From sequence record MN122072: a stretch of DNA of 52,288 nucleotides, one strand, 5' to 3'. The notes beneath the pieces were generated by a model. That model saw nothing but the letters and a program-made list of their open reading frames with translations. It did no database searches and was not told the DNA's origin. Shown one piece after another: positions 35,315 to 45,284 of this stretch. A program made the position numbers and the translations under genes. The DNA comes from Escherichia phage vB_EcoM_Bp10. Every line of letters begins with the position of its first letter. The first letter of the stretch is position 1.

Positions 35315-35500
35315 ATGGAGTATGAAGTGAACGACCAGCAATTCAACACATTCATGCAACAGATTAATCATCAAGAATTGATGGATGCTATTAAAGGCAA
35401 GAAGCCTGTAGAACGTCAATATCGTAAAATTGATAATTATATGCCAACAATCATTGCATGTGTTGGTGTTGCTATTGTTCTCTACTTCCTGGTGAAATAA
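35315..35500 (+). CDS. small tail-anchored membrane protein
   Basis: C-terminal hydrophobic segment MPTIIACVGVAIVLYFLV. Confidence 0.4.
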   Translation: MEYEVNDQQFNTFMQQINHQELMDAIKGKKPVERQYRKIDNYMPTIIACVGVAIVLYFLVK

Positions 35501-35586
35501 TGGACATTGTTAAGAAATTAGTATTCTGTATCGTAATGTTCCCTCTGGTGCTGCTAGTTGTGGGCAGCTTCATGTACTTAAACTAA
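35500..35586 (+). CDS. 28-aa hydrophobic peptide (not in ORF track)
   Basis: MDIVKKLVFCIVMFPLVLLVVGSFMYLN; ATG overlaps the upstream TAA (TAATG). Confidence 0.3.
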   Translation: MDIVKKLVFCIVMFPLVLLVVGSFMYLN

Positions 35587-35595
35587 GGTAATTAA

Positions 35596-35901
35596 ATGGC
35601 TTCTTTACTCGAATTCTCAAATATTGCAAATGTTGCTAAGAATTCCATTCCTGCAAATACTGATGTAATTGCATATATGCGTGTTGATGTAAGTCTGTTG
35701 GCTTTTGTAATGGACCACATCAATCTTGTTGAAGAGCAGTTGTCTCAGGCCAATGAAACAATTGACACTCTTCGTGAACTTCGTAAGGCAGAACAAAGTG
35801 CCTACGATGAATTGATGGAGCAGAAGAACAAGCTCCAAGAACAGTTGGCAGATGCACTTCAACAAATTGAAGATATGAAGCCAGCACCAACCAAACAATA
35901 A
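35596..35901 (+). CDS. hypothetical coiled-coil protein
   Basis: C-terminal half heptad-like (EEQLSQANETIDTLRELRKAEQSAYDELMEQKNKLQEQLADALQQIEDM). Confidence 0.45.
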   Translation: MASLLEFSNIANVAKNSIPANTDVIAYMRVDVSLLAFVMDHINLVEEQLSQANETIDTLRELRKAEQSAYDELMEQKNKLQEQLADALQQIEDMKPAPTKQ

Positions 35902-35916
35902 GACTTAGGAGTTATT

Positions 35917-36180
35917 ATGGCTACTAGAACAGGCATGATGATTGTCCCAAGCCGTAATAACTCTTTAAGCGGCTTTACACCATATAAAATCTACGAAGTG
36001 ATTTCTGGCACTGGTGAAGCAAACCTGTCAGAAGTTGCTTTGAAGTTGGGCCGTATGGTCCACTCCGAAATCTCCTGTAACGTAGTTGATGATGAAGGTA
36101 AAATCCGTTTTGTAACAATGGATTTCTTTCGTGAATTTAATCTTAAATCTGAAATCGGTGTTTTATATCATGAAATTTAA
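35917..36180 (+). CDS. hypothetical protein
   Basis: 87-aa ORF with plausible RBS (GGAG). Confidence 0.4.
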   Translation: MATRTGMMIVPSRNNSLSGFTPYKIYEVISGTGEANLSEVALKLGRMVHSEISCNVVDDEGKIRFVTMDFFREFNLKSEIGVLYHEI

Positions 36181-36397
36181 ATGTGTTGCTTCAACCAAAG
36201 ACTATGTTCCAGTTGGCTTCATCGTTGAAGGTGAAGCTATCTCACCTTTGGAATTTAAAGTGACTAAATCTGCTGAGAATGTTTCTCCAGCATTTCGTAA
36301 AGGTGCTGTAGTTCCTATGAATGGTGCATTCTGGACATGGCAGCGTGACCATCGTGCAGAATTTGCAGACATTTGTGAACAAGGCAATCTTCAATAA
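36170..36397 (+). CDS. hypothetical protein
   Basis: Start at ATG 36170 overlapping the upstream stop; followed by a hairpin. Confidence 0.4.
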   Translation: MKFKCVASTKDYVPVGFIVEGEAISPLEFKVTKSAENVSPAFRKGAVVPMNGAFWTWQRDHRAEFADICEQGNLQ

Positions 36398-36403
36398 TTT
36401 CCT

Positions 36404-36430
36404 CAACCGCTTTTATATTGAGAGCGGTTG
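36404..36430 (+). terminator. terminator-like hairpin (CAACCGCT / AGCGGTTG)
   Basis: 8-bp perfect stem with 11-nt loop; AT-rich downstream. Confidence 0.4.
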
Positions 36431-36460
36431 CTGAATATTATTAATTAACTTGGAGTATTT

Positions 36461-36751
36461 ATGAAACAACGTACTCGTTTACAACGTGACCCAGCCACAG
36501 GTCGCTTGTTGCCAGCATACTTGAAAGTTGGTGACTTAGTTTACACTCGTGACTTTGCTTTTGATATTTGCCCAAGCAAAGCCTATGTTGTTCTTGCCAC
36601 CAGCTTATCAAAGCCTAAAGTTTTGTTTGGCTCACTTGAGCCAATCCAGTTAACAGGAACTCAGTTCGTCATTAAAGATGATTCTGGTTGTAACCGTATC
36701 TTCAGTCTTGAAGGTGGTTTGTCCAAATGGGAGAAGGTGAAGCGTGGGTAA
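36461..36751 (+). CDS. hypothetical protein
   Basis: ORF with GGAG RBS. Confidence 0.45.
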   Translation: MKQRTRLQRDPATGRLLPAYLKVGDLVYTRDFAFDICPSKAYVVLATSLSKPKVLFGSLEPIQLTGTQFVIKDDSGCNRIFSLEGGLSKWEKVKRG

Positions 36752-43540: not shown

Positions 43541-43563
43541 GTCGTTTGACGAATCAGAGCAGT

Positions 43564-43588
43564 TCTGAAACATTAGTTGGATGTGGAA
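43564..43588 (+). promoter_or_regulatory. copy of conserved motif (perfect core), candidate phage promoter
   Basis: tctgaaACATTAGTTGGATGTGgaa, 75 bp upstream of a codon-optimised gene. Confidence 0.45.
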
Positions 43589-43663
43589 AGAGAAAGGCTC
43601 TTTAATTTTATCTAAGTCACGTCACCGTGGCGTGCAAAACTATTCAATATAAGGTATATACAA

Positions 43664-44002
43664 ATGGCTAAGATTGTAACCGTAACTCAGTACGAAGCTA
43701 ACGATGGTTCCCTGTTCCTGACCGAAGCAGAGTGTAATGCACATGACTTCAAACTGGAAAACGGTGCTAAAATTGAGAAAGCTGCCGAAGCGTACCTGAA
43801 CACCGTTGGCGCTATCGACCGTTCTCGCTCCATGCAGAAGAACACCATCGAGCAGTTCCTGGCATTCTACCTGCCGTGGGTTGAAGCTGGTGAGCCGGAA
43901 GTTGAGCGTACTAAGTTCGATACTCCGAAAGAAGCTAAAGTTGCTGACGCAAGTGTTGCCGAAGCTGCCGAAGCTGCTGTAGAAGAAGCTCCGGTATTCT
44001 GA
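43664..44002 (+). CDS. acidic, apparently highly expressed 112-aa protein
   Basis: Codon usage like structural genes; about 21 D/E against 11 K/R; Ala/Glu-rich C-terminus; directly behind a perfect motif copy. Confidence 0.5.
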   Translation: MAKIVTVTQYEANDGSLFLTEAECNAHDFKLENGAKIEKAAEAYLNTVGAIDRSRSMQKNTIEQFLAFYLPWVEAGEPEVERTKFDTPKEAKVADASVAEAAEAAVEEAPVF

Positions 44003-44383
44003 GTTGCCGATGGCAAACTTGAGAGACTAAGCTAAATCGATCTGGCATGCACTGGAAGTTTTCCGGTGCTGCCTTGAACCCATTCCAGAGTGAGTGGGCT
44101 TCAATTTGTACATAATCCAAACACCATTGCATGAGCCTTCGACGGGAGGCAATGTTGGGAAATTTGTTGTGTACAAATTGAAGTAGTTTTCTGAGTCTTA
44201 CGACGGGCCTAAACTGCCTGGAGTTATTGCGACTGTTTTATTCATTTAAAATAAATGCAAATGATTCTGAAATGCGAGTTGCGGCTTAATTAAATTTAAG
44301 TCCTCTCCGTGGTCTTCCAATCCCACGTAACCAAATTTGGCGCATTGTGGCTTCGAGATGTGATTAATAAATCGGAGCAATAA

Positions 44384-44580
44384 TTAATTTGTATTCTGCG
44401 ATGCAACGCAGGCTTAAGTCCCTCAGTGCGCGTGGGGATGTGACAGAGTACAAACTTAATTACTAATTTGTATTCTGGTGTTGTTCGCCAAGATTGGTGC
44501 ACTCATGATTGGTAGTGTTGGAGAGCGCGGAGCCTAAAATATTATCTGGCATCTCCTACCAGAGTACAAACTTAATTATG
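44384..44580 (+). repeat. inverted and direct repeats of an 18-bp unit TAATTAATTTGTATTCTG, including a 36-bp imperfect palindrome at 44444-44478
   Basis: taattaatttgtattctg at 44388 and about 44463; reverse-complement form cagagtacaaacttaatta at 44444 and about 44560; related TTTGTTGTGTACAAATTG palindrome near 44160. Confidence 0.45.
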
Positions 44581-45019
44581 CAGTTGGATATTTCTAGAGG
44601 ACGGACGAGCACACTGGAATGTCTTCAATTGGTTTAGTGTGAGAAGCTATGGCAATTTGAAACGTAACTCCTTGGGGAAGTGCTCCTCTGGATTTCCCTC
44701 CACACAGGAATCTCAAGCCTGTGGCAGCGACTTCGAAGCTGCACTGCGTAACCTAAATTCACCCTAAAGTGAGTTGCCCTGAGTATGGAAATAAACTGCT
44801 CATAACCGATGGTATCTACAAAGGTAGATTAAATCAGGTTGCCTGTTGGTACTTGGGTTCAACACCTGCTTGCACTCGCAAAGTAGTGCCTCGTACCTGA
44901 GATGAAGTGAGTCGGGACCATCAATCCCACGTTATGCCAAAACATAGTAGGCGGCTCACAGATTCTACAAGCCTCGCAGTTCGGGAAAACCTGCGTTATC
45001 AAAACCCCCTTTTTTATTT

Positions 45020-45113
45020 GGACGAGTAGCTCAGAAGGTTTGCATTGTGCTCAGTCAGGTAGAGCAATCTGTTCGACAGATGTGTCGTTGGTTCGAATCC
45101 AACCTCGTCCACC
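45020..45113 (+). tRNA. tRNA-like gene, non-canonical (duplicated D-arm 5' segment, 5-nt anticodon loop)
   Basis: GGACGAG (45020-26) pairs with CTCGTCC (45104-10); T-arm GTTGG-TTCGAAT-CCAAC (45087-103); canonical D-arm GCTCAGTCAGGTAGAGC (45049-65) preceded by an extra TAGCTCAGAAGG; anticodon stem ATCTG/CAGAT has a 5-nt loop. Confidence 0.35.
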
Positions 45114-45143
45114 CACTTTAATAATAGCAATACTGGAGTCCTT

Positions 45144-45284
45144 ATGGATTTTGATGCACTTGATAATTTAGACTTCGGTGCTGCCGAAGAAGCAATTGAA
45201 GAACTTAAGAAGAAGCAGGACGAAGAAGCAATCGTTCCTGGTGAGGGCGATAACGACTGCTCAAGTGGTGCGTGCGCCATCTAA
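45144..45284 (+). CDS. 46-aa acidic peptide ending CSSGACAI (not in ORF track)
   Basis: GGAG 5-6 nt upstream of ATG 45144; MDFDALDNLDFGAAEEAIEELKKKQDEEAIVPGEGDNDCSSGACAI; directly upstream of the spanin-like pair. Confidence 0.35.
   Translation: MDFDALDNLDFGAAEEAIEELKKKQDEEAIVPGEGDNDCSSGACAI

What the first reader, a model, noticed from the sequence alone, without database searches (positions are those of the whole stretch)
35500..45284. Unannotated very small ORFs: a 28-aa hydrophobic peptide, a 46-aa acidic peptide and a 38-aa Cys-containing ORF
Three ORFs below the 60-aa cut-off have credible starts: 35500-35586 (membrane-like, coupled to the upstream gene), 45144-45284 (acidic, ending CSSGACAI, just before the spanin-like pair) and 38031-38147 (contains CKHC, GGAGA RBS). 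Such micro-proteins are often missed and can be lysis modulators or host-interfering peptides.
Basis: seen in the sequence. Interest (0 to 1): 0.4.

Follow-up and report, generated by a model that had tools for sequence, protein, structure and literature searches.

The report
Phage micro-genes; one mimics RNR tail
All three tiny reading frames are real, conserved genes of a phiEcoM-GJ1-like coliphage, and the acidic 46-residue one ends in a copy of the redox-active tail of ribonucleotide reductase's large subunit, which suggests a previously undescribed way for phages to tap the host's DNA-precursor supply.

Summary
The window is a Carltongylesvirus (Chaseviridae) genome. ORF A (35500-35586, 28 aa) and ORF C (45144-45284, 46 aa) are exactly as described. 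All three are intact in all 44 related phage records. All three are under purifying selection: pN/pS is 0.26 for A, 0.15 for B and 0.05 for C, and every bootstrap interval excludes 1.

B (= GJ1 gp16) and C (= Mangalitsa_036) are already deposited as "hypothetical protein". A is annotated nowhere I looked. A is a single-pass membrane micro-protein coupled by TAATG to an upstream tail-anchored protein. B is a Cys/His/Cys/Cys protein that resembles DUF1660 below Pfam's threshold.

C is the interesting one. It belongs to a family of 37-50-aa acidic phage proteins. Their C-terminus, [DE]-C-x(1-4)-C-K-I*, matches the dithiol shuttle tail of class Ia RNR alpha (NrdA) (hhalign P 2e-7). In one jumbo phage the whole module is fused to a glutaredoxin domain. 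This phage carries an orphan NrdB and no NrdA. I propose that C is a free-standing RNR tail acting in the Grx/Trx-to-RNR electron relay. No evidence supports a role in lysis.

The parts
35500..35586 (+). ORF A: 28-aa single-pass hydrophobic micro-protein (MDIVKK + about 20 hydrophobic residues). It is unannotated in relatives and contains an RNA hairpin in codons 17-23.
   Evidence: Searches give the sequence. It is intact in 44/44 records at 80-100% aa identity while the DNA falls to 77%. dN/dS is 0.20. Leu16 is encoded by 5 different Leu codons, and the Kyte-Doolittle mean over residues 7-26 is 2.57.
35315..35500 (+). Upstream partner gene: 57-61 aa with a C-terminal membrane anchor (the start is probably the GTG at 35327, which is ATG in relatives). 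Its stop overlaps the ATG of ORF A (TAATG).
   Evidence: It is annotated in relatives as SA91KD_08 / GJ1 gp07. dN/dS is 0.20.
38023..38142 (+). ORF B: 39-aa Cys5/His10/Cys26/Cys29 protein, equivalent to phiEcoM-GJ1 gp16. GGAGA lies at 38012-38016. It overlaps the ATG (38133) of the downstream 301-aa gene by 10 nt.
   Evidence: It is intact in 44/44 records. dN/dS is 0.13. DUF1660 is the only Pfam hit for all 15 variants, E 0.012-0.017, 16.1 bits against a cut-off of 21.4. C5, H10, W12, C26 and C29 are invariant.
45144..45284 (+). ORF C: 46-aa acidic protein with two predicted N-terminal helices and a disordered C-terminal tail. GGAG lies at 45135-45138.
   Evidence: It is 95.7-100% identical in 44/44 records. 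dN/dS is 0.04, and variable sites by codon position are 4/1/24 (chi-square p 9e-8). AlphaFold2 predicts helices 3-7 and 11-28, with the tail at pLDDT about 50.
45246..45281 (+). RNR-alpha-like tail of ORF C: GDNDCSSGACAI, with Cys39 at 45258-45260 and Cys44 at 45273-45275.
   Evidence: E. coli NrdA ends ...VPSIQDDGCESGACKI. Bacterial and viral NrdA tails were collected. hhalign of the family against NrdA tails gives P 3.7e-5 (12 columns) and P 2.4e-7 (16 columns, probability 93%), with both alignments ending at the C-terminus. The control against NrdB tails gives probability 0.6%.
45019..45115 (+). tRNA-Leu(CAG), immediately upstream of ORF C.
   Evidence: ARAGORN; Rfam RF00005 at 45.2 bits.
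45293..45529 (+). Rz-like i-spanin, 8 nt downstream of ORF C.
   Evidence: PHROG 1026, E 3e-20.
45453..45662 (+). Rz1-like o-spanin (lipoprotein), starting inside the Rz gene (45453) and extending beyond its stop.
   Evidence: PHROG 1275, E 3e-18.
29170..30270 (+). Orphan class Ia RNR beta subunit (NrdB). There is no NrdA, Trx, Grx or NrdH in the window. It is a possible functional partner of ORF C.
   Evidence: tblastn gives 79.8% identity to E. coli NrdB over 376 aa, and the only NrdA hit in the window is the ORF C tail. Pfam Ribonuc_red_sm, E 2e-48. It is annotated in relatives (PMC6266442).

Best explanation
All three ORFs are genuine protein-coding genes of a phiEcoM-GJ1-like phage.

ORF A is a 28-aa single-pass inner-membrane micro-protein. 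It is made by termination-reinitiation (TAATG) after a 57-aa tail-anchored membrane protein, and I infer that the two act together.

ORF B is a 39-aa, probably zinc-binding (C/H/C/C), DUF1660-like phage protein that is translationally coupled to the gene downstream.

ORF C is a free-standing copy or mimic of the C-terminal dithiol 'shuttle tail' of class Ia ribonucleotide reductase alpha (NrdA). It is a small helical, acidic handle carrying a flexible tail that ends Cys-x4-Cys-Ala-Ile.

Inferred mechanism for C: host glutaredoxin or thioredoxin reduces the Cys39/Cys44 pair as it reduces NrdA Cys754/Cys759. The tail then exchanges with the active-site disulfide of host NrdA in trans. This speeds re-reduction of RNR, which in this phage would be a hybrid of host alpha and phage-encoded beta, while phage DNA is being made.

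Shown here: coding status, family membership, tail similarity, the glutaredoxin fusion and the orphan NrdB. Inferred: redox activity, the partner proteins, and the direction of the effect (activation rather than inhibition).
For: Coding status. All three ORFs are intact in 44/44 records. dN/dS is 0.20, 0.13 and 0.04, with bootstrap intervals excluding 1, comparable to annotated neighbours.

The ORF C family.
- Syntenic homologues lie just upstream of Rz in Erwinia, Pantoea and Aeromonas chaseviruses.
- An exhaustive profile search found 31 cluster representatives of 38-98 aa, and every match ends at the protein's C-terminus.
- F11, C39 and C44 are invariant and the terminal Ile is at least 90% conserved.

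Similarity of the tail to NrdA.
- E. coli NrdA ends ...DDLVPSIQDDGCESGACKI; ORF C ends ...EEAIVPGEGDNDCSSGACAI.
- The variants in the small family (CxxC, Cx3C, Cx4C; endings KI, TI, VI, AI) mirror those of bacterial and viral NrdA tails. Examples: NrdA ...EEEEECDSCKI against family ...EDESECDSCKI; NrdA ...GDDCGDSCKI against family ...ADNDCGDSCKI; NrdA ...ETCGACAI against ORF C ...SGACAI.
- hhalign gives P 2.4e-7, with a clean negative control.
- The tail motif occurs in 1 of 16,745 background ORF segments, and that one is ORF C.
- Of 69 viral loci ending DCGDACKI*, one is a 762-aa NrdA and 68 are tiny ORFs.

Fusion to glutaredoxin. Pantoea phage Survivor XCN28122.1 has a Pfam Glutaredoxin domain (44 bits) followed by a complete ORF C module (hhalign probability 95.8%, E 6.6e-9).

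Context. The phage has NrdB but no NrdA. Family members lie near thymidylate synthase in Wellington, Faunus and phiA050.

Structure. The tail is predicted to be disordered. From my own knowledge, the NrdA tail is likewise flexible and usually unresolved in crystal structures.

General mechanism of the tail: PMC4078304.
Against: - There is no experimental evidence of any kind: no expression data, redox measurements or binding data.
- Similarity to NrdA covers only the last 12-16 residues. The N-terminal two thirds of ORF C resemble nothing known.
- Erwinia phage Faunus has the ORF C homologue but no NrdB, so the pairing with orphan NrdB is not obligatory.
- Host NrdA already carries its own tethered tail, so it is not obvious that a free one helps.
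- The spacing between the two cysteines in a phage's peptide does not track that of its host's NrdA. Erwinia phages carry CxxC or Cx3C, whereas the enterobacterial NrdA tails sampled here (E. coli, Yersinia, Serratia, Klebsiella; Erwinia itself was not sampled) carry Cx4C.
- In marine contigs and in DIBBI the gene sits among structural or packaging genes, not nucleotide-metabolism genes.
- For A and B, the codon-position bias alone is weak (chi-square p 0.08 and 0.12).
- The AlphaFold2 model of B is uninformative.
Confidence: 0.5

Rival explanations
1. ORF C is a decoy or inhibitor rather than a helper. By imitating the NrdA tail it titrates thioredoxin or glutaredoxin, or it occupies the NrdA active-site channel. 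That would shut down host RNR re-reduction or redirect thioredoxin, for example towards the phage's T7-like replication machinery or away from host functions.
For: It rests on the same tail similarity as the main explanation. From my own knowledge, yeast Sml1 inhibits RNR by competing with the R1 C-terminal tail, so small proteins that target this step exist. Host NrdA already has a tail, which makes competition the simplest consequence of adding a free one. Faunus carries the peptide without any phage RNR gene.
Against: Fusing the whole module to a glutaredoxin domain in phage Survivor makes sense for a relay and little sense for a trap of that same enzyme. These phages carry NrdB, thymidylate synthase and dUTPase, so they invest in dNTP supply rather than blocking it.
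Confidence: 0.2
2. The resemblance to the NrdA tail is convergent and unrelated to RNR. On this view the family is a small acidic protein whose terminal Cys pair binds a metal or forms an intermolecular disulfide, serving some other late function such as assembly, packaging or regulation.
For: The similarity is confined to 12-16 residues. Gene neighbourhoods vary: before the small terminase gene in DIBBI, after a tape-measure gene or before large unknown proteins in marine contigs. Neither Pfam nor PDB gives a hit for the family.
Against: The whole spectrum of NrdA tail variants is mirrored in the family, including the acidic run and the terminal K-I. The glutaredoxin fusion is independent evidence for thiol-disulfide chemistry with the very enzyme that reduces the NrdA tail. 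The motif is essentially absent from background ORFs.
Confidence: 0.15
3. One reading: ORF C is a lysis modulator acting with the spanins, because it sits directly upstream of Rz/Rz1.
For: The order C-Rz-Rz1 is conserved across Chaseviridae genera. In Faunus, gp31 overlaps the Rz start, which suggests translational coupling.
Against: ORF C has no signal peptide or membrane segment, and spanins act in the periplasm. One chasevirus (L008) keeps Rz/Rz1 without the peptide. Outside Chaseviridae the family is not next to spanins. The holin and SAR endolysin lie 16 kb away, next to nrdB.
Confidence: 0.07
4. ORF A is not a gene. On this view the 95-nt gap between two genes holds an RNA hairpin (a terminator or processing site, as annotated in phage SA91KD), and the open frame is incidental.
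For: SA91KD annotates a rho-independent terminator inside the ORF. A hairpin of -10 to -13 kcal/mol folds in codons 17-23, and a weaker one in a shifted register is present in the divergent clade. No record inspected annotates the ORF.
Against: No U-tract follows the stem, and the terminator scan finds nothing there. Synonymous changes are spread over the whole ORF, including the 5' half that lies outside the hairpin. Leu16 uses five different Leu codons. pN/pS is 0.26 (95% interval 0.11-0.48). Start, frame and hydrophobic character are kept at 77% DNA identity. The two roles can coexist.
Confidence: 0.1

Closest known systems
C-terminal redox tail of class Ia ribonucleotide reductase alpha (E. 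coli NrdA Cys754/Cys759)
   Same: Both have an acidic run, then Cys-x(1-4)-Cys, then K/A/T plus I/L as the last residue of the chain, and both are flexible. ORF C ends ...VPGEGDNDCSSGACAI; NrdA ends ...VPSIQDDGCESGACKI. The variant spectrum matches at family level.
   Different: ORF C is a 46-aa stand-alone protein with no catalytic barrel and its own conserved N-terminal motif (L-D-x-[ILV]-D-F-[DE]-x-[IVA]-E) plus a helix. It is encoded by a phage that has no alpha subunit.
Glutaredoxin domains fused to RNR components (Grx-NrdB of Facklamia ignava, recalled from the literature and not checked here)
   Same: Both physically link a glutaredoxin to a component of the RNR electron relay. Phage Survivor fuses Grx to the ORF C module.
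   Different: In the known case Grx is fused to the radical-generating beta subunit and reduces the alpha tail. Here Grx is fused to a tail-like peptide and no RNR catalytic subunit is part of the protein.
Sml1 and related small RNR regulators of yeast (recalled from the literature)
   Same: These are small, partly disordered proteins that act at the step where the alpha C-terminal tail regenerates the active site.
   Different: There is no sequence similarity. Sml1 is an inhibitor that lacks the Cys pair, whereas ORF C carries the tail itself.
Pfam DUF1660 (prophage protein) / PHROG 2670, for ORF B
   Same: Both have N-terminal C-x4-H-x-W and a later C-x2-C in a very small phage protein. DUF1660 is the only Pfam family hit by all 15 variants.
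   Different: The score of 16.1 bits is below the gathering cut-off of 21.4. Only the first half of the 63-position model is covered. The function of the family is unknown.
Bacterial and phage single-pass membrane micro-proteins (e.g. AcrZ), for ORF A
   Same: Both are under 50 aa, with a short charged N-terminus and one hydrophobic helix. There are weak Pfam hits to AcrZ (E 0.058) and DUF4083.
   Different: There is no significant homology to any family. ORF A is restricted to one phage genus.

Membership tests
Class Ia RNR alpha subunit (NrdA) | Ribonucleotide reductase barrel domain (PF02867) with active-site cysteines | tested here: not met
   ORF C is 46 aa and has no Pfam hit even at E<=10. 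tblastn with E. coli NrdA matches only the last 17 residues. ORF C is therefore not an NrdA and not an obvious nrdA remnant; a tRNA gene lies upstream.
Class Ia RNR alpha subunit (NrdA) | C-terminal acidic stretch, then Cys-x(1-4)-Cys, then two residues at the chain end | tested here: met
   hhalign of the family against NrdA tails gives P 3.7e-5 and P 2.4e-7, aligned end to end at the C-terminus. The control against NrdB tails is negative. The motif occurs in 1 of 16,745 background ORF segments.
Class Ia RNR alpha subunit (NrdA) | Tail cysteines are reduced by Trx/Grx and reduce the active-site disulfide | not testable with these tools
   The only indirect support is the glutaredoxin fusion in phage Survivor.
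Small acidic phage protein family of ORF C (unnamed; pVOG5313 in the SA91KD annotation) | 37-50 aa; N-terminal L-D-x-[ILV]-D-F motif; acidic helix; C-terminal C-x(1-4)-C-x-I | tested here: met
   The profile search returned 31 cluster representatives at E<=1e-3, including the window's own cluster. The alignment has F11, C39 and C44 invariant.
Lysis cassette accessory (holin, antiholin or spanin partner) | Membrane segment or signal sequence, and linkage to lysis genes wherever the family occurs | tested here: not met
   ORF C has no hydrophobic segment. Linkage to Rz holds only inside Chaseviridae and not in DIBBI, P778, Wellington, 2050HW or Survivor.
Pfam DUF1660 (ORF B) | Score at or above Pfam's gathering threshold (21.4 bits) | tested here: not met
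   16.1 bits, E 0.017; all 15 variants fall below the threshold. Membership is left open as 'DUF1660-like'.
Pfam DUF1660 (ORF B) | Conserved Cys/His/Cys/Cys ligand set | tested here: met
   C5, H10, C26 and C29 are invariant in all relatives, while H28 varies (H/N/S). Metal binding itself was not tested, and the AlphaFold2 model has low confidence.
Intrinsic terminator (rival reading of ORF A) | G+C-rich stem-loop followed by a U-tract | tested here: not met
   A stem is present, but no U-tract follows it and the consensus scan finds no site at 35500-35600.
Single-pass membrane micro-protein (ORF A) | One hydrophobic stretch of at least 18 residues flanked by polar ends, conserved as protein | tested here: met
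   The Kyte-Doolittle mean over residues 7-26 is 2.57. Substitutions are conservative (V/I/L/M/A). pN/pS is 0.26. Membrane insertion itself was not tested.

The most novel reading that the evidence does not exclude
ORF C defines a widespread class of 'portable RNR tails'. These are phage micro-proteins that carry the dithiol shuttle of ribonucleotide reductase alpha as a separate, diffusible polypeptide, sometimes fused to glutaredoxin. They would couple host Grx/Trx to the active site of host NrdA in trans. Together with the orphan phage NrdB, this would explain how phages that encode only the beta subunit still take control of dNTP synthesis. A second family of about 35 aa with the same tail is abundant in marine viral contigs.
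Probability: 0.35. Interest if true: 0.8.

Novelty: new variant of a known kind. Interest (0 to 1): 0.62.

Why it matters
Re-reduction of the RNR active site by the alpha C-terminal tail is a key and often rate-limiting step of dNTP synthesis (my own knowledge). No stand-alone version of that tail has been described in the literature I could search.

If the peptide acts on host RNR, it would be a new mode of viral metabolic takeover carried out by a 46-residue protein. It would also give a testable answer to an open question: whether and how phages with an 'incomplete' RNR gene set are functional. That question is stated in PMC3653736, and it applies here because the Carltongylesvirus phages encode nrdB only.

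Such a peptide would be a natural tool for probing or inhibiting the RNR tail step.

The finding also adds one conserved micro-gene (ORF A) that was annotated in none of the seven relatives' records inspected here (of 44), and whose exact sequence is absent from the 15-billion-protein collection. It shows that small-ORF cut-offs hide functional phage genes.

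Tried and rejected
- **PDB searches for ORF C.** Single sequence, full-family profile and C-terminal profile gave nothing useful. HMMER's filters probably drop 12-residue matches.
- **Pfam and PHROG for A and C.** Only noise-level hits.
- **Word-indexed homology search with ORF C alone.** It returned only near-identical sequences. The profile and exhaustive searches were needed.
- **The search for related loci with the full family alignment.** A degenerate DNA pattern was used instead.
- **Idea that the N-terminal motif of ORF C imitates the NrdB C-terminal alpha-binding peptide.** Rejected: hhalign probability 0.6%.
- **Idea that ORF C always accompanies an orphan NrdB.** Rejected: Faunus has the peptide but no NrdB. 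The IMG/VR NrdB scan was uninformative for this question, and the tblastn of NrdB gave too many hits to use.
- **Idea that the marine 35-aa peptides sit next to RNR genes.** Rejected: their neighbours are structural, unknown, methylase or glycosyltransferase genes.
- **AlphaFold2 of ORF B.** pLDDT 59.7, so uninformative.
- **P0176.** This 306-aa 'member' of the ORF C cluster is an unrelated clustering artefact.
- **Literature.** The papers on the Carltongylesvirus phages 'Tiny' and ST32 contain no expression data for these ORFs.

Full report
**Identity of the window.** An 11-kb stretch around the finding is 96% identical to Escherichia phage vB_EcoP_Bp7 and 85-93% identical to phiEcoM-GJ1, ST32, Mangalitsa, SA91KD and about 40 other records. 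All belong to Chaseviridae, genus Carltongylesvirus. Genes run on the + strand. The three ORFs lie in the early/middle region, between the RNA polymerase gene and the replication module.

**Check of the observation.**
- ORF A is as described. Its ATG at 35500 shares one base with the TAA of the upstream ORF, its stop is at 35584-35586, and it encodes 28 aa.
- ORF C is as described. It spans 45144-45284, encodes 46 aa, and has GGAG five bases upstream. It lies directly after tRNA-Leu(CAG) (45019-45115) and 8 nt before an Rz/Rz1 pair, confirmed with PHROGs (E 3e-20 and 3e-18).
- ORF B is mis-located. Position 38031 is not a start codon and is out of frame. The ORF that carries GGAGA (38012-38016) and CKHC is 38023-38142, 39 aa. 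Its last 10 nt overlap the ATG (38133) of the next gene.

**Are they genes?** ORFs this short arise by chance, so the test is conservation.
- tblastn finds each peptide, full length and without stops, in all 44 related records.
- I extracted the ORFs from 15 relatives (14, 14 and 12 distinct nucleotide sequences). Start, frame and stop are kept throughout. A varies only in its last 2-4 residues (26-28 aa).
- Nei-Gojobori dN/dS in the proposed frame is 0.20 (A), 0.13 (B) and 0.04 (C), against 0.44-11.7 in the other two frames.
- Codon bootstraps of pN/pS give 95% intervals of 0.11-0.48, 0.04-0.42 and 0.005-0.12.
- The annotated neighbours give about 0.20.
- For C, variable sites by codon position are 4/1/24 (p 9e-8). 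For A and B this particular statistic is weak (p 0.08 and 0.12).
- A is conserved as protein (80-100% identity) although its DNA drops to 77% identity, lower than the gene upstream. Leu16 is written with five different Leu codons.

I conclude that all three are protein-coding.

**Annotation status.** B is phiEcoM-GJ1 gp16 (ABR68728.1), Mangalitsa_016 and SA91KD_20. C is Mangalitsa_036, SA91KD_36 and EcoM1_00038. Both are deposited as 'hypothetical protein'. A is annotated in none of seven records inspected: SA91KD, Bp7, EcoM1, GJ1, Mangalitsa, 2KOFFS and MLP1. Its exact sequence is absent from the 15-billion-protein collection. SA91KD instead annotates a terminator inside it.

**ORF A.**
- The sequence is MDIVKK followed by about 20 hydrophobic residues (Kyte-Doolittle mean 2.57), so it has a single membrane helix.
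- The upstream 57-61-aa protein ends in a similar hydrophobic anchor, and the two cistrons are joined by TAATG. I infer co-translation and joint action in the inner membrane.
- A hairpin (-10 to -13 kcal/mol) folds in codons 17-23, and a weaker one in a shifted register is present in the divergent clade. It lacks a U-tract, and the terminator scan finds nothing there.
- The hairpin may be a secondary RNA signal, but it does not explain the synonymous pattern across the whole ORF.
- The A/upstream pair is confined to this genus. Its function beyond 'membrane micro-protein' is unknown.

**ORF B.**
- C5, H10, W12, C26 and C29 are invariant, and H28 varies.
- The only Pfam family hit, by all 15 variants, is DUF1660 (prophage protein). 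The score is 16.1 bits, below the 21.4 cut-off. The best PHROG is 2670, of unknown function.
- AlphaFold2 gave a low-confidence model.
- I file it as a DUF1660-like, probably zinc-binding small protein that is translationally coupled to the 301-aa gene downstream.

**ORF C: the family.**
- Chaseviruses of other genera encode, in the same place just upstream of Rz, small acidic proteins that share the N-terminus and the C-terminal Cys pair. Examples are Erwinia phage Faunus gp31 (...NDCGDACKI), the Pantoea and Erwinia Y2-like phages (...DCDGCKI) and Aeromonas phiA050 (...NDCGDGCKI).
- One chasevirus (L008) lacks it.
- An exhaustive profile search of 1.84 billion representatives found 31 clusters at E<=1e-3. 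All are 38-98 aa, and every match ends at the protein's C-terminus.
- The family consensus is L-D-x-[ILV]-D-F-[DE]-x-[IVA]-E, then an acidic helix, then [DEN]-[DE]-C-x(1-4)-C-[KTVA]-I*.
- Members also occur in Xanthomonas phage DIBBI, Pantoea PSKM and AAM37, Yersinia P778, and the jumbo phages Wellington, Kwan, 2050HW and Moabite.
- AlphaFold2 predicts two helices (3-7, 11-28) and a disordered tail.

**ORF C: the tail is that of RNR alpha.**
- E. coli NrdA ends ...DDLVPSIQDDGCESGACKI. ORF C ends ...EEAIVPGEGDNDCSSGACAI.
- I collected 93 bacterial NrdA tails and more than 100 viral ones.
- They show the same acidic run, the same variable spacing (CxC, CxxC, Cx3C, Cx4C) and the same K/T/V/A-I/L ending as the small family. 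Some are near-identical: NrdA ...EEEEECDSCKI against family ...EDESECDSCKI; NrdA ...GDDCGDSCKI against family ...ADNDCGDSCKI; NrdA ...ETCGACAI against ORF C ...SGACAI.
- Profile-profile comparison aligns the two C-termini end to end: P 3.7e-5 over 12 columns and P 2.4e-7 over 16 columns, probability 93%.
- The same test against NrdB tails is negative.
- The tail motif occurs once in 16,745 background ORF segments, and that one is ORF C.
- A scan of IMG/VR for DCGDACKI-stop found 69 loci. One is a 762-aa NrdA. The other 68 are tiny ORFs, most of them from a second family of about 35 aa in marine contigs.

From established knowledge, and from the abstract of PMC4078304, this tail carries the cysteine pair that re-reduces the RNR active site and is itself reduced by thioredoxin or glutaredoxin.

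**ORF C: independent links to that chemistry.**
- Pantoea phage Survivor XCN28122.1 (164 aa) has a Pfam Glutaredoxin domain (residues 36-96, 44 bits). This is followed by a complete ORF C module, with both the N-terminal motif and the tail. hhalign gives probability 95.8%, E 6.6e-9, and BLASTP against the window's ORF C gives E 3e-5.
- The window encodes a full NrdB that is 79.8% identical to E. coli NrdB, with a host-like alpha-binding C-terminus. It has no NrdA, Trx, Grx or NrdH. This orphan nrdB is shared by the whole genus.
- PMC3653736 notes that nrdB-only phages are of unknown functionality.
- In Wellington, Faunus and phiA050 the gene lies within a few genes of thymidylate synthase.

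**Mechanism proposed.** ORF C is a diffusible version of the RNR alpha shuttle tail. Grx or Trx reduces Cys39/Cys44, the tail reduces the active-site disulfide of host NrdA in trans, and the N-terminal helix and motif serve as a docking handle. That the motif is retained in the Grx fusion suggests its partner is not Grx.

What is shown: the gene, the family, the tail similarity, the fusion and the orphan NrdB. What is inferred: redox activity, the partner, and the sign of the effect.

The main rival is the opposite sign, a decoy that competes with the NrdA tail. The lysis idea rests only on synteny inside one family, and it conflicts with the absence of any membrane or export signal.

**Caveats.**
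- Faunus has the peptide but no NrdB.
- The cysteine spacing does not follow the host's NrdA.
- Neighbourhoods outside Chaseviridae are heterogeneous.

**Novelty.** Searches of the held literature found no description of a stand-alone RNR tail peptide. Those searches are not exhaustive. I rate the finding a new variant of a known kind: a known redox module in a new, free-standing viral form. Overall interest is moderate to high. It rests almost entirely on ORF C. A is a modest annotation gain, and B is ordinary.

Noticed in passing
window 29170-30270 (+): Orphan class Ia RNR beta subunit (NrdB), 79.8% identical to E. coli NrdB. It lies directly after the holin/SAR-endolysin pair, and the genome has no alpha subunit. 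It is known from relatives' annotation, but how it works without a phage alpha is unexplained.
   Followed up: partly
IMG/VR loci L094-L162 (e.g. L114 4915-5023, L101 2294-2402): A second, abundant family of tiny ORFs of about 35 aa (MEEDFVLPDNMFxDNPxFVDTSxEFDDDCGDACKI) in marine viral contigs. It ends in the same NrdA-like tail. It often overlaps by 4 nt the start of a 600-700-aa protein with no Pfam or PHROG match, or follows a tape-measure gene.
   Followed up: partly
L243 2626-3120 (Pantoea phage Survivor, PP885733.1 15377-15871): A protein annotated as 'glutaredoxin' is really a two-module protein: a Grx domain plus an ORF-C-like tail module. tRNA genes lie just upstream of it, as in the window.
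   Followed up: yes
window 35540-35565: An RNA hairpin (GCUGCU...GGCAGC) lies inside ORF A. It is present in a shifted register in the divergent clade and is annotated as a terminator in SA91KD. It may be a dual coding/RNA signal.
   Followed up: partly
window 45019-45115: A 97-nt tRNA is called tRNA-Leu(CAG) by ARAGORN. The homologous gene in phiEcoM-GJ1 is annotated tRNA-Arg 'may contain an intron'. ARAGORN finds no tRNA in Mangalitsa at this place, although ORF C is kept there.
   Followed up: no
window 44003-45018: About 1 kb has no ORF of 60 aa or more on the + strand. Relatives annotate different small genes here: an Imm-like superinfection immunity protein in Mangalitsa, and a 68-aa ORF in SA91KD. 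The region is variable.
   Followed up: no
window 39925-40323, 28616-29170 and 45293-45662: Lysis functions are scattered. An L-Ala-D-Glu peptidase sits in the early region, a holin plus SAR endolysin sit at the end of the tail genes, and the spanins lie 16 kb from the holin.
   Followed up: no
window 35315-35330: The gene upstream of ORF A has ATG at 35315 and GTG at 35327 in this phage. Relatives have a stop or Leu at the first position and ATG at the second, so the real start is probably 35327 (57 aa).
   Followed up: no
L008 14300-14760: A chasevirus that lacks the ORF C homologue has about 450 nt of non-coding sequence upstream of Rz instead. The translations look tRNA-like, but ARAGORN calls no tRNA.
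   Followed up: no
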